A DNA stretch of 59,330 nucleotides from an uncultured bacterium (lineage in GTDB: Bacteria; Patescibacteriota; Gracilibacteria; Absconditabacterales; Absconditicoccaceae): positions 1 to 59,330 of the forward strand of contig CAIXFE010000093.1 in assembly GCA_903918675.1 (NCBI GenBank), in the 5' to 3' direction. A program made the translations under genes and the position numbers. The notes beneath the pieces are model-generated. The model saw only the letters and a list, made by a program, of their open reading frames with translations, did not search any database and was not told the DNA's origin. This document shows positions 1-47,206 of this stretch, piece after piece (within the stretch, counting starts at the first letter, position 1; the number at the start of each line of letters is the position of its first letter).

Positions 1-62
1 CCATTATCGGCTTCACCCTACAACAATCTGTGGCCATCTGAGGCAATGTGCGGCCACCTGGA
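1..62. repeat. word-array element (partial at window edge)
   Basis: Degenerate words CTGTGGCCATCTGAGG / TGTGCGGCCACCTGGAG. Bases 30..44 are the exact reverse complement of 46466..46480. Confidence 0.6.
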
Positions 63-4295: not shown

Positions 4296-4877
4296 CTAGG
4301 CTTCAAGCTCTTTCTCTACAAAGTCCCGATTCACAATATTCCACCGATTCGTCACGTATTCTACCCTACGATTCTGATACTTCAGGTAATAGGCATGCTC
4401 CCATACATCTACAGTCAATAAAGGTTTTTTATCTAGAGTAAGCGGAGATCAAGCGTTACTCGTATTGATAATCTCTAATGTCCCATCAGGGTTTTTCACT
4501 AGCCAAGTCCGCCCAGATCAGAAGTTGCCGACAGCACTAGCCGTCATTACTTCTTTAAATTTTTCAAAACTTCATCGGTTAGCATTTATCGCTTCTAACA
4601 ATGATCAGGTAGGTTGATTATTCTCTTGTGGCGATTGCAGACAATTTCGATAGAACGTGTGATTCCAAATTTGTGATGCATTATTAAAGATGGGCCCATC
4701 AGCGGTCTTGATAATTTCTTCCAATTCTCGATCCTTAAATCCGGTATCAGCGATCAGCTCATTCAGTTTATTCACATAGCCTTGATGATGTTTACTGTAA
4801 TGAAGCTCGACTGTCTGGGCGTCAATGATGGGTTCTAGCGCATTGTAATCATAGGGGAGAGAGGGGAGAGTGAACAT
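4296..4877 (-). CDS. Fe/Mn superoxide dismutase
   Basis: [29 protein letters not shown] ... [15 protein letters not shown]. Pieces joined across TGA at 4605..4607. Confidence 0.9.
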
Positions 4878-5334
4878 AATAAGGGATTAGGAATTAAAAA
4901 TTAGGCATTGTATTTTTTTAAAATCTAAGGTCCAAGTTCTAAGCGCTAAGCTCTCTGAGTATCAAGCTTCAAGTTTCCAGCCAATAGCAATTGTACCGGT
5001 CGCCGAAGATTTTTCAATAGAAAATACGCTCTTGCAAAACGACATTTTTTCATTATTTATAGAAGTATCTTTATCTATCAAGCAATTTATGCTCAGAGAA
5101 AGCTTCAACGCAACGTGTTGTACAAACGGTAGAACTACTGGAGCTTTTCTCGATCGCATAAAAAGATAGAACATACTATTTTGCAGCTGCGCCTTCTGGG
5201 AAACTCCAGAGGTTTTTTTTAATTCGACGAAAGAAAATTTATGAATCTATTGCAGAAAATATTATATCGAGATGATTCGTGTCGAAACAAAATTTCTATA
5301 CGTAAAAGAATCTCTAAATAATTCAAATTTTACT

Positions 5335-5470
5335 ATATTCTGTCTCCCTTTCATAAAGGGAGATACCCGAAGGGGAGAGGGATTTTTTCTCGAAAACACT
5401 CTATCATCTCTAGTATCTTAAATCCACCTGTCTTTCAGACTTCCCCCTTTGCAAAGGGGGACAACATGGG
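5335..5470. repeat. hairpin-pair intergenic element (copy 2)
   Basis: TCTCCCTTTCATAAAGGGAGA hairpin, then ACCCGAAGGGGAGAGGGATTTTTT, ATCCACCT and a CCCCCTTTGCAAAGGGGG hairpin. Confidence 0.6.
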
Positions 5471-5524
5471 AGGCAATGAATATTTTAGAGGCCCCTAAAC
5501 TTTTTACTTATTAATCTTTTTCTC

Positions 5525-6430
5525 ATGAAACTAAATATTGAATGACTCTTACAAACCGTACCCATGATCCCTATCAAGGGAATCAGAGACAATACCGTCC
5601 ATGCGCTGATGGAGAAATATAATATTACTGGATCCGTGAAAGTGAAACCCGTCTATCGAATCCTCAAAGATGCTCACGAAAAATGATTATTAGATTGAAA
5701 TAAAATTGCCCTAGAAGCTTCCAGTGGGAATACTGCTATCGCATTAGCCTATCTCTGAAATCTTTTTGCTCTTCAGGTCCAGATCATCCTTCCTCGCACC
5801 ACTTCGCCTTGCAAAAAAAAATTGATCCAATCCTATGGCGCTGAGATCATAGAGATCGATGGGTCTACAGATATAGGGATTAAACTGAGAGATCGCATGC
5901 ACGCAGAGAATCCAGGTAAATATTTTCTTCCCGATCAATTCAGTAACTACGCTAACTTCCGAGCGCATTACCATCTCACAGGCCCGTATATCTTACAGAA
6001 ATTAGGGAAAATAGATTTCTTCATCGCAGGATTATGAACCTCATGAACTCTGCTCGGCGCTGGGAAATATCTCAAAGAACATCTGCCAGATATCAAGATT
6101 ATTTGAATTAATCCACTGGAGAGGATCGAAGGATTGAGAAACTTCAAAGCTACAGATATTGTGATTCCATTTTTTGAAGAACATAAATGACTGATCGATG
6201 AAATCATTGATGTGACCTTCGATCCCTGTGTCATCTCTGGAGTCCAAGAGTATCTCAAAGAAGGCTATTTCGTCGGTATCTCATCCGGTGCCATCTTGAG
6301 CGGAGCCAAAAAGTATCTCCATGGCAAATCTGGACTCAAGTGAGTAATTGTGGCTCCGGATGGTGGCGATTATTATCTCGATACCTTAGTGAAATATCTA
6401 GATGCAGAAGATTTCGTGGCTTGCAAGTAG
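5525..6430 (+). CDS. cysK: cysteine synthase family PLP-dependent enzyme
   Basis: NITGSVKVKP (PLP lysine region), EASSGNTAIALA, GLGTSGTLLG with both underlying glycines of G-x-G encoded by TGA. 301 aa, TAG stop. Confidence 0.75.
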
Positions 6431-6472
6431 GGAAATATTTCCATAGAAAAGAGAAATTAATTCCGTATGATA

Positions 6473-6570
6473 GAAGGGCTTGAAAGGTTTGAAAGGTAAG
6501 AAAGCCTTGAAAGGTTTCCGAAAAAAACTCCCTTTATCCCTTTGCGCCTTTATTCCCTTTCCTTCCCCTC
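6473..6570. repeat. word-array palindromic element (GAAAGG / CCCTTT)
   Basis: Left arm CTTGAAAGGTTTGAAAGGTAAGAAAGCCTTGAAAGG, right arm CCCTTTATCCCTTTGCGCCTTTATTCCCTTTCC. Confidence 0.7.
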
Positions 6571-6577
6571 CGTCCAT

Positions 6578-8461
6578 ATGCAAGACATCATACTTCAGCT
6601 ATTCCATACGCCAACAAGCAAATTAGATCTTGATCTCCTTACTCAGCTCAAGAGAAGTTTTTCTAGAACTCATAAATTACCTGATCTTCCTTCAAACATC
6701 CAACTATTACAAGCTTACTACACCTTACTCAAAGCCAAAAAAATCAAAAAAACTCCTCAGATAGAACAGCTACTTAAGAAAAGAGCGATCAGATCTAGTT
6801 CGTGAATCGTAGCCATCCAGGTGCTTACCAAGCCCTTCCCCTGCCCAGGTCAGTGTATTTTCTGTCCCAACGATCCGACTATGCCCAAGAGTTATATCAA
6901 GTCAGAACCGGGTGCAATGAGGGCATTGCTCAATCATTTCGATCCGATCAAACAAGTATACAATAGATTGCTTTCACTGACATTGACCGGTCACGAAACC
7001 GATAAGATCGAGATGATCGTCTTGTGAGGGACATTCGACGTTTACACGAAAGCCTACAAAACGAAGTTTGTGAAAGAGTTATATGATGCCTGCAATACCT
7101 TCGATGAATATTTCGATAATATCACCGTCTCTACCACGACGAAATATTCTCACGCCATCACGGATAAGAGCAAGAAGATAAAATACTCGGCGAACATTAC
7201 TGAGGCACTCAAAAGAAATGAGAGCACAGCACATAGGATCATTTGACTCACTATCGAGACCAGACCTGAATATGTGACAGATGAGAACTGCAAATTTCGA
7301 CGTGAGTTGGGGGTAACAAGGATCGAGATGGGGTTGCAGTCTCTGGATGAAGAAGTCTTAAAGCTGAATAAGAGAGGGCATACGGTCCAGCAAGCACGCA
7401 TGGCCTGTGATAAACTCAGGAGGTATGGCTTCAAGATCTGTCTGCATATCATGCCAGGATTGTATGGCTCGAGTTATGCAAAAGATTTGAAGAGTTTCGA
7501 AGATCTTTATTCTGATCCATTTTTCAAACCCGATGAAATAAAATTTTATCCGACATCAGTCATTCCAAACACCCAACTCTGCAAACTCTACCAAGAAGGC
7601 AAGTACAAACCTCTGGAAACATCAGAGATAAAAAAACTTATTACTCAGACCTTTCTTCACGTTATCCCTCCCTACACCAGGATCAAGCGTCTCATCCGCG
7701 ATATCCCAGAAAACGAAATCGTTGCATGAAGCAAAGTAACGAATCTTTCGCAATTGATGCACGAAGAAATGCAATCAAAAATTGAAAATTGAAAATTGAA
7801 AATTGAAAATTTAACCGGAAGACTTTATGATAAATATAAACTTTTCAAAACAGTGAAAGAATTTCTAAGTGTCATTGCGAGTGAAGCAAGGCAATCCAGA
7901 AAGTGAAATAATGATGCAACATATATCATTGGTAAGAAGCCCGATCTAAAATCATTGAGAAACTTCGTATCATTAGATACAAGGAGTAGAGAAATTAGAA
8001 ATAAAATTAGAAATTGAAAATTGAAAATTGAAAATTGATCTCCGAATCTTGTGATGAGGAGATATCAGAGCAGCGCAGGGGAGGAGTACTTTATTTCATT
8101 CGAAGATGAGTTGGGATACTTGTACGGATTTGCAAGATTACTATTGCCCAAAGATGGAAAGAATCTAAGCTCTAAGTTCCAAGTGCTAAGCTCTAAAACG
8201 GCGATCATTAGAGAATTGCACGTTTATTGAAACGTTGAAACCCTCAAACAATGAAACAATGCGACACTGAAACACCGAAACAATAAGACTCAACATACTT
8301 GATTCTGAAAACAACTCATGCAGCTCGCCGAACAAATTGCAAAGGGAAACAATTACAAAAAACTTTCCGTAATCTCCGGCATTGGTGTCAGAGCATATTA
8401 CAGAAAGCTTTGATATAGACTCGAGTGAAGCTATATGGTGAAGAAAATTACTTCGTCTTAG
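6578..8461 (+). CDS. Elp3-like radical SAM / GNAT tRNA-modifying acetyltransferase
   Basis: CPGQCIFCP radical-SAM cluster motif, LTIETRPEY, MGLQSLDEEVL. C-terminal GNAT region [41 protein letters not shown]. All pieces lie in one frame with TGA=Gly. Confidence 0.8.
7778..8038. repeat. intragenic word-array element inside elp3
   Basis: (GAAAATT)4 at 7778..7812, hairpin GTCATTGCGAGTGAAGCAAGGCAATCC at 7871..7897, (GAAATTR)6 at 7990..8038. Translated in frame. Confidence 0.7.
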
Positions 8462-11156: not shown

Positions 11157-11309
11157 AAATAGTGTATAATAATATAAAATTTTCAAATGATCAAATTGCA
11201 CCAAATTATTCCCAATCATTTTTTAAATTCTTAAATTCCCTTGTTCTGTAAAGAATAAATTTTTAAATTCATTCGAACATTAGGAATAATTTATAAATTT
11301 GTATATTAA

Positions 11310-12937: not shown

Positions 12938-13049
12938 GTTAAAAGGTTAAAGAGTTGAAAGGTTAAAGGGTTATTAATGAGATAAAAACACGTTAACCCG
13001 TTAACACACTAACTCGGTAACTCGCTATAACTCGCCAACCCGTTAACCA
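12938..13049. repeat. word-array palindromic element (GGTTAAA / GTTAACC)
   Basis: Left arm GTTAAAAGGTTAAAGAGTTGAAAGGTTAAAGGGTTA, right arm CGTTAACCCGTTAACACACTAACTCGGTAACTCGC...CCCGTTAACC. Period is about 7 nt. Confidence 0.75.
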
Positions 13050-18965: not shown

Positions 18966-19145
18966 TTAGGGAATAAAGGTGCAAAGGACAGAAAGGTGCA
19001 AAGGGAAAAATAGAAGGGGGTGCAAAGGCATAAAAGGATCAAAGGTATAAAAGGGATTTCACTTTCCTACCTTTCAAACCTTTCTTCCCTTTCAAGCCTT
19101 TCCTACCTTTCAAACCTTTCTTCCCTTTCAAGCCCTTTCTTCCCG
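18966..19145. repeat. word-array palindromic element (AAAGG.. / CCTTTC.., 9-nt period)
   Basis: Left arm AAAGGTGCAAAGGACAGAAAGGTGCAAAGGG.... Right arm is CCTTTCAAA CCTTTCTTC CCTTTCAAG CCTTTCCTA, present twice. Confidence 0.8.
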
Positions 19146-19183: not shown

Positions 19184-21262
19184 ATGCAAATACGTAACTT
19201 TTGTATCATCGCTCATATCGATCATGGAAAATCAACATTAGCCGATAGGATGCTTGAGATGACTTGAACCGTGAGGAAAATCGATCATAATCAGATGCTG
19301 GATCGCATGGATATCGAACAAGAAAGAGGGATCACCATTAAGTTAACTCCAGCGAGAATGCACTGGAAAGGGTATGAACTCAATCTCATCGATACTCCCG
19401 GACATGTAGATTTCCAGTATGAAGTCTCTCGTTCTCTCGCCGCTGTAGAGGGCGTCATTTTGTTGATCGACTCAAGTCAATGAATCCAAGCGCAGACACT
19501 TTCCGTATTGTATATGGCAGTAGAGCAATGATTAGAAATCATCCCCGTCTTAAATAAAATCGATCTCCCTGCCGCACATCCAGAAAGAGTGGCCAAAGAA
19601 ATCGAGCATGTGATAGGGATCCCTAAGGAAGAAATTTTATTAGTCTCATGAAAGACAGGGGAGTGAGTGGAAGAAGTATTGGATGCGATTATCGAAAGGA
19701 TCAAAGATCCTGATACCTTCAAAAAAGAAAATCCTCAGAAATATCGACCTGCTGGAAGTCATTCTGAGAGAAGCGAAGAATATAATAAGGCCAATGATAT
19801 CCTTCACAAAAGTTCAGGATGACACGATTGAATCTCCAGAGCCCTTATTTTCGATTGTGTCTATGACGCATACAAAGGCGTAGTCGCGTACGTCAAAGTC
19901 GTAGAATGATCATTCAAAGCAGGGGAGTCAATGCATCTCATCCATTCCGATACCGATATCATCGCGACTGAAGTCTGACATTTTTCTCCAGAATATACCA
20001 AAGATAAAACATTATCTCATGGGCAGATCGGCTATATTCTTACCTGATTAAAATCCGTCCGTGATGCACAAATTGGCGATACAATCATATGATGAATTGA
20101 AAATTGAAAATTAGAAATTAAAAATTTGCGTGATTTTATTGTGCCTGGTTTCAAGAGGGTCAAGCCATACGTCTATGCAGGCATGTACCCCGTCGATACG
20201 AATGATTATGAAAAACTCAAAGATAGTTTAGAAAAATTATCATTGAACGATAGTGCTGTAGAATATTCACTAGAAGACAGTAAAGCACTGGGATTTTGAT
20301 TTCGCTGTGGATTTCTGTGAATGCTGCACATGGATATCATCAAAGAAAGATTACGGAGAGAATATGGCATCGAGACTATCTTTACCATCCCTACGGTAGT
20401 CTATCTCGTGAAATCCAAAAACCTCAGCATCCCCGAGATCAAATCCGGGAACAATATCCAGACACTCCTTTCTACCTGACTCTACAAAGATGTTTTGATC
20501 TACGAAAAATATACGACAGCTATTTCCAGTGATGACTTAGATGATATTGTTACCAATAATACTATCGATCCCTCTGAGATCTCATCAGAAATCTCTTCCG
20601 CTCTCACCCCCCGGATCGTCGTAAAATCAGGTTCGGATCTGCTCGATCAAGGCATCATGGATATCATCTTGGAGCCTATCGCAGAAGTGGAGATCGTCGG
20701 ACCCAAAGAATATGCAGGCAATATCATGGCCCTCAGCAATGAATACAGAGGCAGCCTCAAGTCGATGGATTACCTCGATGAGAATAGGGTAGTGTGGAAG
20801 TACGAATTACCCTTCGGCGAGATCATCATCGATTTTTACGACAGATTGAAGTCAGCGACAAAGGGCTATGCGACGATGAATTACGAATTCAAGAGATATC
20901 AAGAGGCCGACCTCGTCAAGATGGATATTTGGATCAATAATGAGAAAGTCGAGGCCTTGAGCTGGATCGTTCACAAGGATAAAGTCTATTATCTCGGTAG
21001 AGAAGTGACAGAAAAGCTTAAAACTCTGATCCCCAAACATCTGTTTACTATTCCTGTCCAGGCGGGTGTCGGTACCAAGATTATTGCTCGCGAAACTATT
21101 CCCGCTATGCGCAAAGATGTGATCGCGAAATGTTATGGAGGTGATGTAACGAGAAAAAGAAAATTATTGGCAAAGCAGAAAGAAGGAAAGAAGAAGATGA
21201 AAGCATTGGGTAATGTTAACGTGCCTTGAGACGTCTTTATAAAAATGGTAACCAGGGATTAG
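19184..21262 (+). CDS. lepA: elongation factor 4 (LepA)
   Basis: [20 protein letters not shown][TGA][58 protein letters not shown]. 692 aa because of low-complexity insertions. Confidence 0.95.
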
Positions 21263-21355
21263 GAATCGGTGAGCAGGAAGCAGGAATCTGTCCGAGCCCG
21301 GCCCCAATAAACCTGCCTGCCGGCAGGCAGGCCAATTCCCGATAAACCAATAAAC
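21258..21355. repeat. word-array element with perfect 20-nt palindrome core
   Basis: Core CCTGCCTGCCGGCAGGCAGG at 21312..21331, flanked by ..GGAATCGGTGAGCAGGAAGCAGGAAT.. and CCAATTCCCGATAAACCAATAAAC. Confidence 0.75.
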
Positions 21356-23008: not shown

Positions 23009-23117
23009 ATATTATGTCATTCTGATCCCGACGGGTCGGGAGAAGAATATAAAGGAGCTTATTGTACTCTTCACTTTGTTCAGAGTGACAGATCATTTAA
23101 CCTCGTATCATTCCTAG

Positions 23118-29256: not shown

Positions 29257-29730
29257 ATGATCCTTGGAATTGATCCATGAGTAAGAAAACTCGGCTACGC
29301 GCTTATCAAAGCAGATTTAACGATAGTGGAATCCGGAATTTTACTTTTAGAAAAAAAATCTCCAACGAGACAAGATCAGTTTGAAAGGATGATGGAGATA
29401 GAAAATTTCTTTATCAAACTTATTAAAAAACATAAGATACAGACGGTGTGTATGGAAGAATTGTTTTTCACGAGATTCAATCAAAATAACGCAGAGTTTG
29501 TCTACGGCATCAGAGCGATATTGATTACTTTATGCCTTAGGAATAAGGTAAAGATCAAAGAATTGACTCCGATCCAACTCAAAAAATATATCACCGGAAA
29601 CAGTAAAGCCGATAAGAAAATAGTCCAAAATTGTATCATGAAGATATTTAATTTACAAGAATGTCCCGAATATAACGATGCCGCAGATGCCTTGGCATTG
29701 GCCTATATCGCTAATAAGATGAAAGTATAA
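29257..29730 (+). CDS. ruvC: crossover junction endodeoxyribonuclease RuvC
   Basis: MILGIDP[TGA]VRKLGYA, MEELFF, KADKKIVQ, NDAADALALAY. Start is 1 nt after the map stop. Confidence 0.85.
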
Positions 29731-29905
29731 TTTCTGATTTTCAATTTTTAATTTCCTTGTCCTGTAAAGGATAAACAATTTCTAAGTTCTAATTTCTAAT
29801 TTTCAAACCTCTTATGTCTAGGTTCTTTAAGCTTTGTGCTTGGCAGGCTATAAGCTTTAAGCCACTCTCCCACTTTCCCACACTCCCACCTTCCAACTCT
29901 CTTTC

Positions 29906-34716: not shown

Positions 34717-34899
34717 ATGATGAAATTTATCTATGACAGTTTAGAGACTGTCAAAAAATTGAAACATCCTACCAAGAAGGATTTTATCAATCTCACACTA
34801 GCTATATTCGCACTTGTGATCGTCGCTGGATTATATTTTATCGCAGCAGATACCGTATTTTCATGATTATACAAATGGTTTTTTAGTGTGATGAAATAG
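34717..34899 (+). CDS. secE: preprotein translocase subunit SecE
   Basis: ETVKKLKHPTKKDFINLTLAIFALVIVAGLYFIAAD. Lies immediately upstream of nusG. Confidence 0.75.
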
Positions 34900-35001
34900 A
34901 GGAAATGGTAATCGGTAATCGGGAATTCTACTTCCGAATAACCAATAACGAATAAACATATTTTACAATCTTCCAAATCTTTTAATATTTTAATCCACTC
35001 C

Positions 35002-35586
35002 ATGCAAACAAAAGATGCCAATACTTGAGAGATCAAAAGGCAGATAGAAGATAACAATTATAAATGGTATGTACTCAGTGTCGTTTCCTGACAAGAGGAA
35101 TTGGTAATAGAGAATCTGAGAGAGAGGATGAAAAAACAAAACTTGGAGGATGCTGTACAAGATTATATGTCTCCCATGGTCAATGAATCATCATTGAAGA
35201 AAGGAGAAAAGGTCATCAAACAAAGAAAACTATATCCATGATATGTATTTATCTGCTCCAAGATGAACGACAAAATCCGATATGTAGTCAGAAACACCCC
35301 AGGAGTCAGACTTATTGTAGGTGCAGAGACCCGTCCTATTCCACTGACGGATGACGAATATACCAAGATCATCGAACAGATAAAAAAGTCACAAGAGAGA
35401 TCTGAGCTAAAGATCCCATTTAAAGAAGGCGATCTTGTCCTCCTCAAGACAGGTGACTTTAAGGGAATGAAATGAGCAGTAAGAGCGATAGACTCAGATA
35501 AAAGTACCGTCATCGTAAATATAGAAATGCTAGGAAGATTGACTCCTGTAGTGATCGACCTAGACAAAATCGAGCTAATGAGCTAA
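35002..35586 (+). CDS. nusG: transcription termination/antitermination factor NusG
   Basis: KWYVLSVVSGQE, YPGYVF, YVVRNTPGV, KOW motif FKEGDLVLLKTGDFKGMKG. Confidence 0.9.
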
Positions 35587-36497: not shown

Positions 36498-36941
36498 ATG
36501 GCAGGAAAAATTACTAACATTCTTAATCTAGAAATACCCGCTGGGAAAGCTCAGCCATCTCCACCGCTAGGACCTATGCTAGGAGCCAATGGAGTCAACA
36601 TCTGACAATTCATCAAAGAATTCAATGAGAAGACCATGGACCATATGAAACAATTTGCTGGTGTAGATGTGAAAGTAAAAGCGACATTGACCATCTACGC
36701 AGATAGATCTTTTGACCTCAAGATCGGAAGCCCCGTAACATCAAATCTGATTCTATGGAAACTCAAATTACCTAAATGATCTGGAGAACCCAACAAAACC
36801 AAGATAGGGAAACTCACCAGAAAAGATCTAGAAGAAATTGCTGAACTCAAAAAAGGAGATATGAATACTGACGACCTCGAAGCGATGATCAAAGCGATTG
36901 CAGGTACTGCAAAAAATATGGGAGTAGATATCGAAAAGTAA
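36498..36941 (+). CDS. rplK: 50S ribosomal protein L11
   Basis: [23 protein letters not shown][TGA]QF. Confidence 0.95.
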
Positions 36942-36942
36942 T

Positions 36943-37010
36943 TGAAACGTTGAGATATTGAGACATTGAGAGATTACAATTCTCAATCCTCAATCTCTCA
37001 ATCCTCAATA
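36943..37010. repeat. word-array palindromic element (TTGAGA / TCTCAA) between rplK and rplA
   Basis: TTGAAACGTTGAGATATTGAGACATTGAGAGA - TTACAA - TTCTCAATCCTCAATCTCTCAATCCTCAATA. Confidence 0.8.
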
Positions 37011-39505: not shown

Positions 39506-39663
39506 AAGGAGGAATAAGAGAATAAAATATCGATGAAAGAATAGCTGTATTGATATCTCAATTATACTCAAAAAAAGTATAAAACCCAAATTTCTCAGCG
39601 ATTTAGGCTCATTTAAGGGTTTACATTTACATGAATCGATATATAAACCTAGGAAAGTGGCGA

Positions 39664-39775
39664 ATTGTTATTGGTAATTGGTAATTAGTAATTGGTTATT
39701 GGGCCGGAAGCCTTCTCCCAATACACCAGCCCCCAATATACCTGCCTACCGGCAGGCAGGCCAATACACAAATAT
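39664..39775. repeat. word-array palindromic element (GTAATTG / CCAATAC) with CCTGCC..GGCAGG core
   Basis: ATTGTTATTGGTAATTGGTAATTAGTAATTGGTTATTGG - GCCGGAAGCC - ..CCAATACACC..CCAATATA - CCTGCCTACCGGCAGGCAGG (39741..39760) - CCAATACAC. Confidence 0.8.
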
Positions 39776-43259: not shown

Positions 43260-43330
43260 TACTATATATTACAAAGTAAATGTACTTTTCCTAATCTAAG
43301 GTCTAAGCCCCAAGCTCTAAGTTCTAAATG

Positions 43331-44815: not shown

Positions 44816-44920
44816 AGATTCTTAATTTTTAATTTTTAATTTTCAATTTTTAATTTTTAATTTTCAAAGAATTTCTAAGGCCTAAGCTCTAAGGTCTAAG
44901 TCCTAACTCTAAATTCTAAA
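44816..44920. repeat. word arrays (TTTTAAT/TTTTCAA then CTAAGNT) between atpA and atpC
   Basis: TTAATTTTTAATTTTTAATTTTCAATTTTTAATTTTTAATTTTCAAAG followed by CTAAGGCCTAAGCTCTAAGGTCTAAGTCCTAACTCTAAATTCTAAAGG. Confidence 0.75.
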
Positions 44921-46421: not shown

Positions 46422-46447
46422 TGGTTGATAGTATAATAGAATAAAAG

Positions 46448-46588
46448 TTGCTTATTGAGGTGACGGCCTCAGATGGCCACAAATAGCCTCAGATGGCTGC
46501 AGGTCGTTAATTTATCTTTTCTTAAAGAAAAATTAAATAAACAATCTGTGGCAACCTGTGACAATATGAAGCAACCTGTGGCAATACC
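46448..46588. repeat. word-array element (CCTCAGATGGCCAC / CTGTGGCAACC)
   Basis: GGCCTCAGATGGCCAC and AGCCTCAGATGGCTGC on the left, CAATCTGTGGCAACCTGTGACAAT..GCAACCTGTGGCAATACC on the right. Shares words with 1..62. Confidence 0.75.
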
Positions 46589-47050: not shown

Positions 47051-47111
47051 AATCGAAACAAAAATAAACAAAGAGATGATGGTAACGAATAGTAATTTCG
47101 CCTTCACAGGC

Positions 47112-47190
47112 TGTAATTAATCGTAATTACTAATTACGTGACCCCGACGGGTCGGGGGAACAAATTACCAATTACGTCCGGCTTGCCGGG
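47112..47190. repeat. word-array element (TAATTAC / AATTACC) with CCCGACGGGTCGGG core
   Basis: Core at 47143..47156 plus a second hairpin CCGGCTTGCCGG. The same core occurs at 23027..23040. Confidence 0.75.
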
Positions 47191-47206
47191 ACAAATTACA
47201 TTTTTT

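What the first reader, a model, noticed from the sequence alone, without database searches (positions are those of the whole stretch)
7778..8290. Word-array elements inserted in frame inside the Elp3 homologue
Between the radical-SAM and GNAT domains of the Elp3-like gene lies a 261-nt block (7778..8038). It has the same build as the intergenic elements: (GAAAATT)4, then the hairpin GTCATTGCGAGTGAAGCAAGGCAATCC (7871..7897), then (GAAATTR)6. It is translated in frame (..IENGKLKIENL..SVIASEARQSRK..IRNKIRNGKLKIENG..), with TGA codons inside the words read as Gly, and it adds roughly 75 residues relative to the canonical Elp3 linker as I remember it. Two further word stretches form surface-loop codons of the GNAT domain: CTAAGCTCTAAGTTCCAAGTGCTAAGCTCTAAA at 8164..8198 and (TGAAACA)-type words at 8228..8285. 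This parallels the Rickettsia palindromic elements (RPE) that invade ORFs in frame.
Basis: partly seen in the sequence, partly recalled or inferred. Interest (0 to 1): 0.7.

Follow-up and report, generated by a model that had tools for sequence, protein, structure and literature searches.

The report
Repeat DNA translated inside Elp3 loops
In an uncultured SR1 (Absconditabacteria) bacterium that reads TGA as glycine, the short 7-8-base tandem repeats and small palindromes that fill its intergenic DNA also sit, in frame and translated, in a few tolerant loops of the essential tRNA-modifying enzyme Elp3; they turn over quickly between relatives, but they are not one inserted element.

Summary
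Window 6578-8461 encodes an intact 627-aa Elp3 under genetic code 25. It holds four period-7/8 tandem arrays (7778-7811, 8003-8038, 8162-8197, 8228-8290), against 0-1 in simulations, plus the motif GTCATTGCGAG...GCAATCC at 7871-7897.

The reading as one inserted word-hairpin-word element is wrong. The codons between the arrays are conserved across Absconditabacteria, with eight invariant residues among 79 sequences. The roughly 60-aa linker extension is old: recoded outgroups have it, code-11 Elp3 does not.

What varies is five separate soft spots. In 22 related genomes, arrays with different words recur at the same Elp3 sites, at 1.09 per kb against 0.18 in other genes, and with the intergenic period spectrum (7 and 8, never 6 or 9).

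The "hairpin" is the decayed left arm of a dispersed 80-95-nt palindrome. That palindrome is intergenic elsewhere and in frame at this same site in several lineages. Two oral SR1 Elp3 proteins 95.7% identical differ by it.

The RPE analogy therefore holds for the middle patch. The arrays look more like slippage-driven repeats filtered by selection. LepA in this window shows both features too.

Verdict: a new variant of a known kind, moderately interesting.

The parts
6578..8461 (+). Elp3 gene (radical-SAM + GNAT tRNA U34 modification enzyme), 627 codons under genetic code 25, intact
   Evidence: Translation. Pfam Radical_SAM, Radical_SAM_C and a GNAT hit below Pfam's cut-off (20.0 vs 23.6 bits). 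PDB Elp3 E = 6e-88. 120 Absconditabacteria orthologues at 55-74% identity. AF2 model of orthologue P0001 matches Elp3 structures with TM 0.82-0.89.
7778..7811 (+). Soft spot 1 (residues 401-412, KIENGKLKIENL): perfect (AAAATTG)x4.9 array. Same segment length as in array-free orthologues.
   Evidence: TRF 100% matches. Orthologues carry other words here (ATGAAGA, CAGAATT, TTGAAAG, AAAGTTG) or the non-repeat TQMEKELKNGKIETLKKFYG, always 18-20 aa. 19 arrays map to residues 398-412 across the loci. Confidently helical in the P0001 model.
7812..7867 (+). Conserved core A of the clade-wide linker extension (..GRLYDKYKLFKTVKEFL)
   Evidence: R415 is invariant; L416 and Y417 are at least 90% conserved. 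pLDDT about 91 in the model. Absent from code-11 Elp3, present in recoded outgroups L129 and L133.
7868..7915 (+). Soft spot 2 (residues 431-446, SVIASEARQSRKGNND): decayed left arm (7871-7897) and vestigial right end of a dispersed palindromic element
   Evidence: Full 80-95-nt copies GTCATTGCGAGCG..GCAATCC-loop-GGATTGC..CTCGCAATGAC are intergenic in L015, L039 and L079 and in a doubtful ORF in L044 (-32 to -46 kcal/mol). Copies are in frame at this Elp3 site in L003, L011, L023, L026/29/32, L041, L071, L078 and L082. L026 vs L033 shows presence/absence. pLDDT 35-47.
7916..8002 (+). Conserved core B (ATYIIGKKPDLKSLRNFVSLDTRSREIRN). SLDTRSREI is the canonical Elp3 CxCIRCREI motif with all three Cys replaced. 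The REIRN codons form a native 7-nt seed.
   Evidence: Invariant R461, D467, T468, R469, R471, E472, R474. Aligns to C.CIRCREI of outgroups and CLCTRCREI of L129/L133. AGAGAAATTAGA is also in array-free L005.
8003..8038 (+). Soft spot 3 (residues 476-487, KIRNGKLKIENG): (AAAATTG)x5.1 array, about 5-6 aa longer than array-free orthologues
   Evidence: TRF. Array-free forms are 9-10 aa (HQDVKSKETA, NKKEKTEVL). Array forms are 14-22 aa with words AAAGCTN, GTTGAAA, CAGGTTC, ATGAAAA, GTACCGA. L001 shares Q's word. 21 arrays map to residues 476-489. pLDDT below 50.
8162..8197 (+). Soft spot 4 (GNAT loop A, residues 529-540): TCTAAGC-type array replacing the conserved ..IPGLGKS loop
   Evidence: TRF. 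Orthologues have xxDTIQIPGLGKS. Nearest relative L081 lacks 42 nt (6 words) here. CTAAG arrays of 30/38 identity lie at 43292-43329 and 4921-4958. The T-to-C variant word CCAAG removes an in-frame TAA (read directly from the sequence).
8228..8290 (+). Soft spot 5 (GNAT loop B, residues 551-571): degenerate 8-nt array TGAAACAA x7, about 7 aa longer than in canonical Elp3
   Evidence: TRF. The conserved NVETLK codons AACGTTGAAACATTGAAA act as a seed, with arrays of other 8-mers in L014, L081, L034 and L037. 17 arrays map to residues 550-570. Aligns to DmcElp3 loop 390-407, which was replaced by GSGSG in PDB 5L7L. pLDDT 42-46.
6480..6560 (.). Intergenic paired arrays (TTGAAAGGT)x4 and (TCCCTTTA)x4 directly upstream of Elp3. 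An example of the genome-wide intergenic form, and the site of a one-word copy-number difference.
   Evidence: TRF. L081 is 100% identical over 4391-6990 except for one missing 9-nt word here.
19758..19835 (+). Second case in the window: decayed palindrome of a related family (GTCATTCTGAGAGAAGCGAAGAAT...TTCAGGATGAC) in frame in LepA/EF4, about 34 extra residues
   Evidence: Sequence. Fold -18.2 kcal/mol. Gap against EF4 5imq: query 33-72 vs chain 189-194. Related intergenic copy at 23014-23102, -28.3 kcal/mol.
20095..20126 (+). Second case in the window: (GAAAATT)-type array in frame in LepA (IENGKLEIKN), +8 residues
   Evidence: TRF. Alignment gap against EF4.

Best explanation
This is a working Elp3 gene of an Absconditabacteria (SR1) bacterium that uses genetic code 25. 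Its linker between the radical-SAM and GNAT domains carries an ancient, conserved extension of about 60 aa.

Within that extension and in two GNAT loops there are five short soft spots where almost any hydrophilic, unstructured peptide is tolerated. Two DNA-level processes mainly shape the intergenic DNA of this clade, and both also act at these spots.

(1) Strand slippage creates, expands, contracts and re-homogenises tandem arrays of 7-8-nt words. These often start from native quasi-repeats such as the REIRN or NVETLK codons.

(2) A short REP/RPE-like palindromic element inserts and then decays.

Selection then acts only as a filter. Versions that keep the frame, contain no TAA or TAG, and put the A-rich (Lys/Asn/Glu/Gly-coding) strand in the sense direction survive. 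Reading TGA as Gly makes words like GAAAATT translatable in all three phases. Recombination among co-occurring strains shuffles the patches into mosaic alleles.

The repeats are most likely near-neutral passengers, not functional modules.

Shown: the anatomy, the conservation of the core, recurrence at fixed sites, the non-codon periods, presence/absence between close relatives, and a one-word indel. Inferred: slippage as the generator, neutrality, and recombination.
For: - Genetic code 25 and an intact enzyme.
- Core residues invariant in 79 sequences. The extension is present in recoded outgroups but absent in code-11 Elp3.
- Arrays in orthologues fall at residues 177-186, 398-412, 476-489 and 550-570, with different words.
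- In Q's clade, Elp3 has 1.09 arrays per kb. Other CDS have 0.18 per kb and intergenic DNA has 2.43 per kb. Elp3 periods are 7 (25 arrays) and 8 (20), like intergenic DNA (68 and 26). Half of the other-CDS arrays have periods 6, 9 or 12.
- Arrays in Elp3 are common only in the clade whose intergenic DNA is array-rich.
- Slippage: the only difference across 2.6 kb of otherwise 100% identity with L081 is one 9-nt word.
- Concerted change: (AAAATTG)5 in Q against (AAAGTTG)4 in L081.
- Native seeds for the arrays.
- Palindrome family: full copies are intergenic, decayed copies are in frame. L026 and L033 are 95.7% identical yet differ by the element.
- Soft spots 2, 3 and 5 coincide with pLDDT below 50 in the model. 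Loop B is equivalent to the loop replaced in PDB 5L7L.
- LepA in the same window shows both features.
- Mosaic identity profile along the gene.
Against: - Slippage alone does not explain why wholly unrelated words (CAGGTTC, GTACCGA, AAAGCTN) appear at the same site in different lineages.
- It also does not explain why intergenic arrays come as inverted pairs.
- Elp3 is about 6 times richer in arrays than neighbouring genes, which hints at something beyond passive tolerance.
- Patch 1 is confidently helical in the model, not a disordered loop.
- Q's loop-A array overwrites a motif (GLG) that at least 90% of orthologues keep.
- The same words recur in intergenic arrays of this window, which could mean templated copying, although the cross-locus test was inconclusive.
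- L081 could be a chimeric metagenome contig.
- No expression or proteomic data were available.
Confidence: 0.6

Rival explanations
1. One reading: the 261-nt block is a single composite mobile element, (GAAAATT)n - hairpin - (GAAATTR)n, of the same family as the intergenic word-hairpin-word elements, inserted in frame as one unit.
For: The same word flanks both sides in direct orientation. An intergenic element at 29728-29802 has AATTTTC/AATTTCT words (the reverse complement) around a 17-nt hairpin CCTTGTCCTGTAAAGGA.
Against: - The interior encodes residues invariant or at least 90% conserved across the clade, and outgroups that retain the Cys motif share the extension.
- Patch 1 adds no length.
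- The three parts have different nearest relatives (L006, L082 and L001) and all differ in L081.
- The central motif belongs to a different, palindromic family, not to the intergenic word elements.
- The block has no unusual fold.
Confidence: 0.03
2. Protein-level adaptation: the Lys/Asn/Glu-rich repeat peptides are selected. They might tune tRNA binding by the linker and the acetyl-CoA/tRNA-proximal GNAT loop in an organism whose tRNA-Gly(UCA) must read UGA. Alternatively the loops are under diversifying selection.
For: - Arrays recur at the same four or five sites in many genomes, and Elp3 is 6-fold enriched over neighbouring CDS.
- Nearly all words are A-rich on the sense strand and encode basic or polar peptides.
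- Loop B corresponds to a loop that was replaced in a crystallisation construct.
- Patch 1 is structured in the model.
Against: - Periods are 7 and 8 nt, never 6 or 9, which is the signature of a DNA-level process and not of codon-level repeat selection.
- The peptides are unrelated between lineages (KLKIENG, SQVPSPK, LKAESSK, QVPGSRF).
- Many orthologues, including all oral SR1, do without arrays.
- Patches 2, 3 and loop B are low-confidence in the model.
Confidence: 0.15
3. Contingency locus: the perfect 7-nt arrays are slippage switches that reversibly frameshift Elp3 on and off, changing wobble-uridine modification and hence translation.
For: The array at 7778-7811 is 100% perfect with about 5 copies, the most perfect in the window. 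Whole-word indels do occur in this population. A unit of 7 nt shifts the frame.
Against: - Of the 80 genome loci, 77 yielded an Elp3 ORF carrying the conserved motif, and at least 3 of those are cut off by a contig end. None was recognised as frameshifted at an array, but the 3 loci that failed the motif search were not examined.
- Arrays are short (3-7 copies).
- The gene is universally retained.
- No population read data were available.
Confidence: 0.07
4. Cis-acting nucleic-acid sites: the words are binding sites for a DNA- or RNA-binding factor, as proposed for TAACTGA heptamer repeats. The copies inside Elp3 act on the mRNA or DNA (pausing, stability, recombination) and are merely tolerated by the protein.
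For: - Arrays cover 11.8% of intergenic bases. 11 of 28 end within 60 nt upstream of a start codon and 9 of 28 begin within 8 nt of a stop codon.
- A limited vocabulary recurs: AAAATTG-type words are at five further places (20095, 29728, 29777, 44818, plus the second Elp3 array) and CTAAG-type arrays at four places in all (4921, 8161, 43292, 44874).
- Published analogue: PMC4679880.
Against: - The words are very diverse, with more than 25 different words in 59 kb.
- There is no Rfam match.
- Within-locus word sharing is only weakly above between-locus sharing (4/283 vs 21/4847).
- The words at a given Elp3 site differ between relatives.
Confidence: 0.1

Closest known systems
Rickettsia palindromic elements (RPE), in-frame MITE-like insertions (reviewed in PMC10969869)
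   Same: A short palindromic repeat family with copies both between genes and inside unrelated housekeeping ORFs. It is inserted in frame, encodes a recognisable peptide (here VIASE[MT]KQS...IASPSARND), sits in non-core parts of the protein, and decays in place.
   Different: A different phylum and an unrelated sequence. Shorter (80-95 nt against about 100-150). The copy in this window is only a relic of one arm. The element explains only the middle patch, not the word arrays.
REP / BIME / REPIN elements
   Same: Two inverted imperfect-palindrome arms of about 27 nt separated by a 20-40-nt spacer, folding into one long hairpin. Dispersed and mostly extragenic.
   Different: No RAYT-type transposase was looked for. 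The copy number per genome is unknown (about 10 non-Elp3 copies in about 1.2 Mb of sampled loci). REPs are rarely translated.
Intergenic heptamer direct repeats (TAACTGA repeats of Beggiatoaceae, Cyanobacteria, Bacteroidetes; PMC4679880)
   Same: Tandem 7-nt words, 2-7 copies, abundant in intergenic DNA and often close to start codons. Occasionally found inside ORFs, where only the stop-free orientation survives.
   Different: There it is one specific heptamer, found at the periphery of ORFs. Here there are dozens of different 7-9-nt words, frequently as inverted array pairs, and they lie inside internal loops of a conserved enzyme at recurrent positions.
Simple-sequence contingency loci, and low-complexity inserts in housekeeping proteins of AT-rich genomes (e.g. 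Plasmodium) - from general knowledge
   Same: Slippage-prone tandem repeats inside genes. Non-globular, hydrophilic, fast-evolving inserts at fixed permissive positions of conserved enzymes.
   Different: No on/off frameshift variants were seen. The repeat unit is 7-8 nt, not 1-6 nt or codon multiples. The same repeat type dominates the intergenic DNA.

Membership tests
Elp3 (radical-SAM/GNAT tRNA U34 cm5 enzyme) | Radical-SAM domain with a Cys triad for the 4Fe-4S cluster, plus Radical_SAM_C | tested here: met
   C89, C93 and C96 (CPGQCIFC) are invariant in 79 sequences. Pfam PF04055 and PF16199 are above cut-off.
Elp3 (radical-SAM/GNAT tRNA U34 cm5 enzyme) | C-terminal GNAT/KAT domain with the QHxGxG acetyl-CoA motif, and the overall Elp3 fold | tested here: met
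   QHTGFG is present with Q572 and H573 invariant. PDB Elp3 E = 6e-88. The orthologue model has TM 0.82-0.89 to 8ptx, 6ia8 and 5l7j.
Elp3 (radical-SAM/GNAT tRNA U34 cm5 enzyme) | CxCxxC motif (C.CIRCRE) in the linker before the GNAT domain | tested here: not met
   Q and its clade have SLDTRSREI. Code-11 outgroups have C.CIRCREI and recoded L129/L133 have CLCTRCREI. The motif's position and the Arg/Glu residues are kept, but the three Cys are lost.
Rickettsia palindromic elements (RPE) | Palindromic repeat family with many dispersed copies in the genome | tested here: inconclusive
   29 arm matches in 1.47 Mb of Elp3-centred loci, including intergenic full copies. Only one copy of this variant lies in the 59-kb window, plus related-family copies at 19758 and 23014. 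No whole genome was examined.
Rickettsia palindromic elements (RPE) | Inserted in frame in housekeeping ORFs, encoding a conserved peptide, compatible with the fold | tested here: met
   In frame in Elp3 of at least 4 lineages and in LepA. Peptide VIASE.KQS..SPSARND. pLDDT 35-47 at the site with the rest of the fold intact. Presence/absence between proteins 95.7% identical.
Rickettsia palindromic elements (RPE) | Sequence homology to RPE-1..10 and occurrence in Rickettsia | not tested
   No RPE sequences were at hand. The host is Absconditabacteria, so this is an analogue, not a member.
REP/REPIN | Inverted doublet of short imperfect palindromes forming a long hairpin | tested here: met
   L015, L039, L044 and L079 copies fold at -32 to -46 kcal/mol with arms GTCATTGCGAGCG..GCAATCC / GGATTGC..CTCGCAATGAC. 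The Q copy is a relic (-7.4).
REP/REPIN | Cognate RAYT (IS200/IS605-like) transposase in the genome | not tested
   The window's proteins were not scanned for Y1 transposases, and no whole genome was available.
Simple-sequence contingency locus | Repeat-number variation that switches the reading frame on and off within populations | tested here: not met
   77 of 80 genome loci gave an Elp3 ORF carrying the conserved motif, some cut off by a contig end. No frameshift at an array was recognised, but the 3 loci that failed the motif search were not inspected. The only word indel seen is intergenic. Read-level data were not available.
TAACTGA-type intergenic heptamer direct repeats | One specific heptamer in direct tandem sets, mostly just upstream of start codons | tested here: not met
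   More than 25 different words with periods 7-9. Only 11 of 28 intergenic arrays end within 60 nt of a start codon. TAACTGA itself is not among the array words listed.
Genetic code 25 (SR1/Gracilibacteria, UGA = Gly) | In-frame TGA at conserved Gly positions; ORF content collapses if TGA is a stop | tested here: met
   179 vs 86 ORFs of at least 100 aa. 7 of 14 Elp3 TGA codons align with Gly of MinElp3. Relatives are Absconditabacteria/SR1. No tRNA gene lies in the window to confirm tRNA-Gly(UCA).

The most novel reading that the evidence does not exclude
Absconditabacteria have a clade-specific, active DNA-level generator that writes 7-8-nt word arrays and small palindromes into the genome. 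It would be more than passive slippage, for example template-switching or a dedicated nuclease/transposase. The loss of TGA as a stop codon lets these products be translated. A few housekeeping genes are then preferred, recurrent targets, above all Elp3, whose product modifies the wobble uridine of tRNAs, possibly including the UGA-reading tRNA-Gly. Their hypervariable, recombining loops would have functional consequences for decoding in a recoded organism.
Probability: 0.1. Interest if true: 0.8.

Novelty: new variant of a known kind. Interest (0 to 1): 0.5.

Why it matters
If confirmed genome-wide, this would be an RPE-like phenomenon in a second, unrelated and very different lineage: episymbiotic CPR bacteria with a reassigned stop codon. 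It adds a twist. Not only palindromes but also tandem arrays with non-codon periods (7 and 8 nt) are tolerated in frame at fixed positions of essential enzymes.

It gives a concrete, testable example of how mutational or selfish DNA dynamics, a reduced stop-codon set and protein soft spots combine to create fast-evolving peptide segments in otherwise slowly evolving proteins.

Practically, it warns annotators and phylogeneticists that these patches (and the mosaic 3' half of the gene) should be masked. It also marks loop positions in Elp3 and LepA that accept arbitrary insertions.

Tried and rejected
I modelled the orthologue P0001 instead. Its sequence has W at TGA positions, so details at those residues are unreliable.
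- An RNA fold of the whole block showed nothing unusual (z = 0.12). Rfam gave no hit and ARAGORN found no tRNA in the window.
- Searching the window for further copies of the 27-mer or 11-mer motif found none beyond chance. The family became visible only in orthologous loci.
- My first strict array detector found only 5 arrays because intergenic arrays are degenerate. I replaced it with TRF.
- I tested whether Elp3 array words match other arrays of the same genome more than those of other genomes. The result was a 3-fold excess on 4 events, which is inconclusive.
- I tested for a consistent position or strand composition of intergenic arrays relative to start codons and found no clean pattern.
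- Literature searches for the motif and for repeats in Absconditabacteria or Gracilibacteria found no description of this.
- Pseudogene, assembly artefact, CRISPR-like array and diversity-generating retroelement were considered and dropped. The ORF is intact and conserved, and the same sites carry arrays in many independent assemblies.
- I recall GTCATTGCGAG-type palindromes and 'VIASEAKQS' / 'ARND' peptides from hypothetical proteins of other phyla. I could not test that here, so it is not used as evidence.
Full report
**1. What the window is**

The window is coding-dense only if TGA is read as sense: 179 ORFs of at least 100 aa against 86. The finding lies in one 627-codon ORF, 6578-8461 on the + strand. 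It carries 14 TGA codons. Seven of them align with Gly in archaeal Elp3, including GGTF, HV[YF]G and QHxGxG. The genetic code is therefore code 25.

The protein is Elp3. It has Radical_SAM and Radical_SAM_C above Pfam's cut-off and a GNAT hit just below it, and matches solved Elp3 structures at E = 6e-88. Its 120 best database relatives (55-74% identity, 600-650 aa) and 80 genome loci are all Absconditabacteria/SR1. No tRNA gene and no Rfam family lies in the window.

**2. Check of the observation**

- (AAAATTG)x4.9, 100% perfect, at 7778-7811.
- GTCATTGCGAGTGAAGCAAGGCAATCC at 7871-7897.
- (AAAATTG)x5.1 at 8003-8038, reaching back to 7990.
- TCTAAGC x4.7 at 8164-8196.
- TGAAACAA x7.1 at 8228-8284.

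These are far beyond chance. The 14-mer GAAAATTGAAAATT gives 10 matches against 0.3 expected. The gene has 4 arrays against 0-1 in 30 simulations, and the window has 39 against 0-5.

The hairpin is weak by itself (z = -2.0), and the 261-nt block as a whole has no special fold (z = 0.12).

The extra length relative to canonical Elp3 is about 60 aa, not about 75. The linker is 88 residues against 28 in MinElp3. Against code-11 bacterial Elp3 there is a gap of about 59 aa plus about 6 aa.

**3. The block is not one insert**

I aligned the protein with 78 orthologues (linker shown). The linker consists of two conserved cores interrupted by three hypervariable patches.

- Core A is ..FYGRLYGKYxL.. 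and core B is ..IQTxIIGxxPDxxSFRNFVSLDTRSREIRN.
- R415, R461, D467, T468, R469, R471, E472 and R474 are invariant. Y413, L416, Y417, T448, P455, D456, V464, L466, S470 and I473 are at least 90% conserved.
- Code-11 Elp3 from other bacteria (L150-L157) runs straight from ..MKKE to C.CIRCREI.
- More distant TGA-recoded homologues (L129, L133) already have the extension and still have CLCTRCREI.

The extension is therefore older than the clade. Q's SLDTRSREI is the canonical Cys motif with all three Cys lost.

**4. Five soft spots**

I extracted the DNA of 77 orthologues and ran TRF on each. Arrays inside Elp3 fall almost only at these positions (Q residue numbering):
- 177-186: 6 arrays.
- 398-412: 19 arrays.
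- 476-489: 21 arrays.
- 550-570: 17 arrays.
- Q's array at 529-540 is nearly unique.

The words differ between genomes.
- Patch 1: AAAATTG, ATGAAGA, CAGAATT, TTGAAAG, AAAGTTG.
- Patch 3: AAAATTG, AAAGCTN, GTTGAAA, CAGGTTC, ATGAAAA, GTACCGA.
- Loop B: various 8-mers.

Length behaviour differs by site.
- Patch 1 has a constant length (18-20 aa) whether or not it is a perfect array. Even the 'non-array' versions are cryptically 8-periodic. This is in-place homogenisation.
- Patch 3 is 9-10 aa without an array and 14-22 aa with one.
- Loop B appears to grow from the conserved NVETLK codons AACGTTGAAACATTGAAA, which contain two copies of an 8-mer.

In Q's own clade (23 loci), densities and periods are as follows:

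| Region | Arrays per kb | Periods |
|---|---|---|
| Elp3 | 1.09 | 7 (25 arrays), 8 (20); also one each of 11 and 12; none of 6 or 9 |
| Other CDS | 0.18 | half are 6, 9 or 12 |
| Intergenic | 2.43 | 7 (68), 8 (26), 9 (8) |

The Elp3 arrays thus carry the intergenic, non-codon signature, so the generator acts on DNA and not on protein. Arrays in Elp3 are frequent only in the clade whose intergenic DNA is array-rich. Oral and other distant SR1 mostly lack them.

**5. The nearest relative**

A metagenome contig, L081, is 100% identical to window 4391-6990 apart from one missing 9-nt word in the intergenic array at 6480. This is a direct example of whole-word gain or loss.

Identity then drops through the 3' half of Elp3 (97% down to 57%) and recovers to 95% at the end of the gene. 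Synteny ends on both sides.

In L081 all five soft spots differ from Q:
- Patch 1 is (AAAGTTG)4 instead of (AAAATTG)5, a change present in every word.
- Patch 2 is an (AATTACC) word stretch.
- Patch 3 holds other 8-mers.
- Loop A lacks 42 nt (6 words).
- Loop B is (GCGTTGAA)4.

Q's patch 2 and core B are instead 84-91% identical to L082, and its patch-3 region is closest to L001/L083. The allele is a mosaic. The cause is either recombination among co-occurring strains or, for L081, possibly a chimeric assembly.

**6. The 'hairpin' is a relic of a palindromic element**

The motif TCATTGCGA-N14-25-GCAATC occurs 29 times in 1.47 Mb of loci.

- Full copies in L015, L039, L044 and L079 (three intergenic, one inside a doubtful ORF) are 80-95 nt long. 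Their arms are GTCATTGCGAGCG..GCAATCC and GGATTGC..CTCGCAATGAC, and they fold at -32 to -46 kcal/mol.
- The same element lies in frame in Elp3 patch 2 in several lineages:
  - Q's group, with peptides such as VIASEMKQS...IASPSARND in P0001, P0006, P0011 and P0012;
  - oral SR1 (L026, L029, L032);
  - L071 and L078;
  - L041, in reverse orientation.
- L026 and L033 are 95.7% identical proteins that differ by this element, seen as a 60-nt gap. Gain or loss is therefore recent.
- Q, L011 and L082 keep only the left arm plus a vestige (..NND), with folds of -4.5 to -7.4 kcal/mol.

Other patch-2 occupants in relatives are word-hairpin-word pieces, such as AATTACC..CCCC..GGGG..AATTACC in L002 and L017. 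They resemble the window's intergenic element at 47051-47206.

The RPE analogy is therefore justified for this patch (definition in PMC10969869).

**7. Structure**

The window's own translation could not be submitted. An AF2 model of orthologue P0001 has pLDDT 81.7 and pTM 0.85. It superposes on human, yeast, archaeal and bacterial Elp3 with TM 0.79-0.89 normalised to the target.

- Its segments with pLDDT below 50 are exactly patch 2 (444-460), patch 3 (497-509) and loop B (573-590).
- The 181-200 hot spot is also weak, at pLDDT 64-66.
- Patch 1 is confidently helical, and the two cores score 82-92.
- Loop B aligns with DmcElp3 residues about 390-407, which were replaced by GSGSG in PDB 5L7L.

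Nothing suggests a pseudogene. The radical-SAM cysteines and QHxGxG are intact and invariant.

**8. Generality within the window**

Arrays cover 11.8% of intergenic bases (28 arrays in 8.2 kb) and 0.7% of coding bases.

LepA (19184-21262) carries two in-frame features:
- a decayed palindrome of a related family at 19758-19835, about 34 extra residues against EF4;
- a (GAAAATT) array at 20095-20126, +8 residues.

The words used in Elp3 recur elsewhere. AAAATTG-type words are at 20095, 29728/29777 and 44818. CTAAG-type arrays are at 4921, 43292 and 44874, two of them 30/38 identical to loop A. Across loci, the excess of same-genome word sharing is small and inconclusive.

**9. Mechanism and rivals**

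The best-supported account has three parts. Slippage-type array dynamics and a small palindromic element act genome-wide. A few soft spots in Elp3 tolerate almost any hydrophilic peptide. Selection filters only for frame, absence of TAA or TAG, and sense-strand composition. As an example of the filter, the CCAAG word in loop A removes what would be an in-frame TAA. Reading TGA as Gly widens the set of translatable words, and 5 of the gene's 14 TGA codons lie in the patches.

I rate this account at about 0.6. Points it does not explain:
- why unrelated words arise at the same site;
- why Elp3 is 6-fold richer in arrays than its neighbours;
- why intergenic arrays are usually inverted pairs.

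Rivals and my ratings:
- single composite mobile element: refuted, 0.03;
- adaptive Lys-rich peptides: 0.15;
- phase-variation switch: 0.07;
- cis-acting binding sites, as proposed for TAACTGA repeats in PMC4679880: 0.10.

**10. Comparison with known systems, and novelty**

The middle patch behaves like RPE or REPIN-type elements. The arrays resemble intergenic heptamer repeats and low-complexity inserts. Membership in any named family is not established:
- there is no sequence link to RPEs;
- no RAYT transposase was examined;
- it is not a single heptamer;
- no on/off variants were seen.

Searches of the held literature found no description of this in Absconditabacteria or Gracilibacteria.

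I class it as a new variant of a known kind, of moderate interest (0.5).

Noticed in passing
window 6480-6517 vs L081: The only difference between the window and metagenome contig L081 across 2.6 kb (4391-6990) is one 9-nt word (TTGAAAGGT) in an intergenic array. This is a whole-word copy-number polymorphism.
   Followed up: yes
window 19758-19835 and 20095-20126 (LepA/EF4 gene 19184-21262): LepA carries two in-frame features: a decayed palindrome (GTCATTCTGAGAGAAGCGAAGAAT...TTCAGGATGAC, about 34 extra aa) and a GAAAATT-type array (IENGKLEIKN, +8 aa). This is a second housekeeping gene with both features.
   Followed up: partly
window 7976-7999 (residues 467-474, within SLDTRSREI at 7970-7996): The canonical Elp3 linker motif C.CIRCREI has lost all three cysteines in this clade (S, D, S). 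Recoded outgroups L129 and L133 keep CLCTRCREI, and some SR1 keep the first Cys. The implication for the metal site was not explored.
   Followed up: partly
window-wide, e.g. 2500-2590, 12938-13048, 19024-19144, 36941-37009, 39663-39760, 46440-46588, 47100-47206: Intergenic spacers are largely built from paired arrays of 7-9-nt words. The second array is usually the reverse complement of the first, often around a GC-rich hairpin, so long imperfect hairpins can form. 28 arrays make up 11.8% of intergenic bases, and 9 of the 28 start within 8 nt of a stop codon. Their function is unknown.
   Followed up: partly
window 21312-21331 and 39741-39760; 23027-23040 and 47143-47156; 717-732, 794-811, 5346-5360, 5444-5459: Recurrent small perfect palindromes (CCTGCCTGCCGGCAGGCAGG; CCCGACGGGTCGGG; CYCYTT-N-AARGRG hairpins) are embedded in the word elements. 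The same hairpin types occur in frame in Elp3 patch 2 or loop B of relatives (L002, L017, L037, L045, L011).
   Followed up: partly
window 11239-11255 and 29755-29771 (similar at about 51870): A shared 17-nt core CCTTGTYCTGTAAAGRA sits between direct word arrays in at least two intergenic elements. It may be a distinct small element or a regulatory site.
   Followed up: no
window 6990-8460 vs L081, L082, L001/L083: The 3' half of Elp3 is a mosaic. The nearest relative switches from L081 (100-90%) to L082 (84-91% at 7826-8014) to L001/L083 (80% at 8015-8125). Synteny with L081 ends at both gene-cluster borders (about 4290 and 8460). The cause is recombination or a chimeric contig.
   Followed up: partly
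window 7100-7190 (Elp3 residues 175-203): There is a further insertion of about 27 aa relative to MinElp3 in the radical-SAM domain. It holds a 12-nt duplication (7100-7122) in Q and 7-nt arrays in L003, L012, L013, L020 and L046. L098 carries the palindrome arm near this site.
   Followed up: partly
window 4921-4958, 43292-43329, 44874-44912: CTAAG-word arrays lie in the same orientation as the Elp3 loop-A array. Those at 4921 and 43292 are 30/38 identical to it and also contain a CCAAG variant word. This could be a common origin or convergence.
   Followed up: partly
window 34731-35003 (-): The 90-aa minus-strand ORF called here overlaps three word arrays (34907-34994). It is probably not a gene but an intergenic word element.
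   Followed up: no
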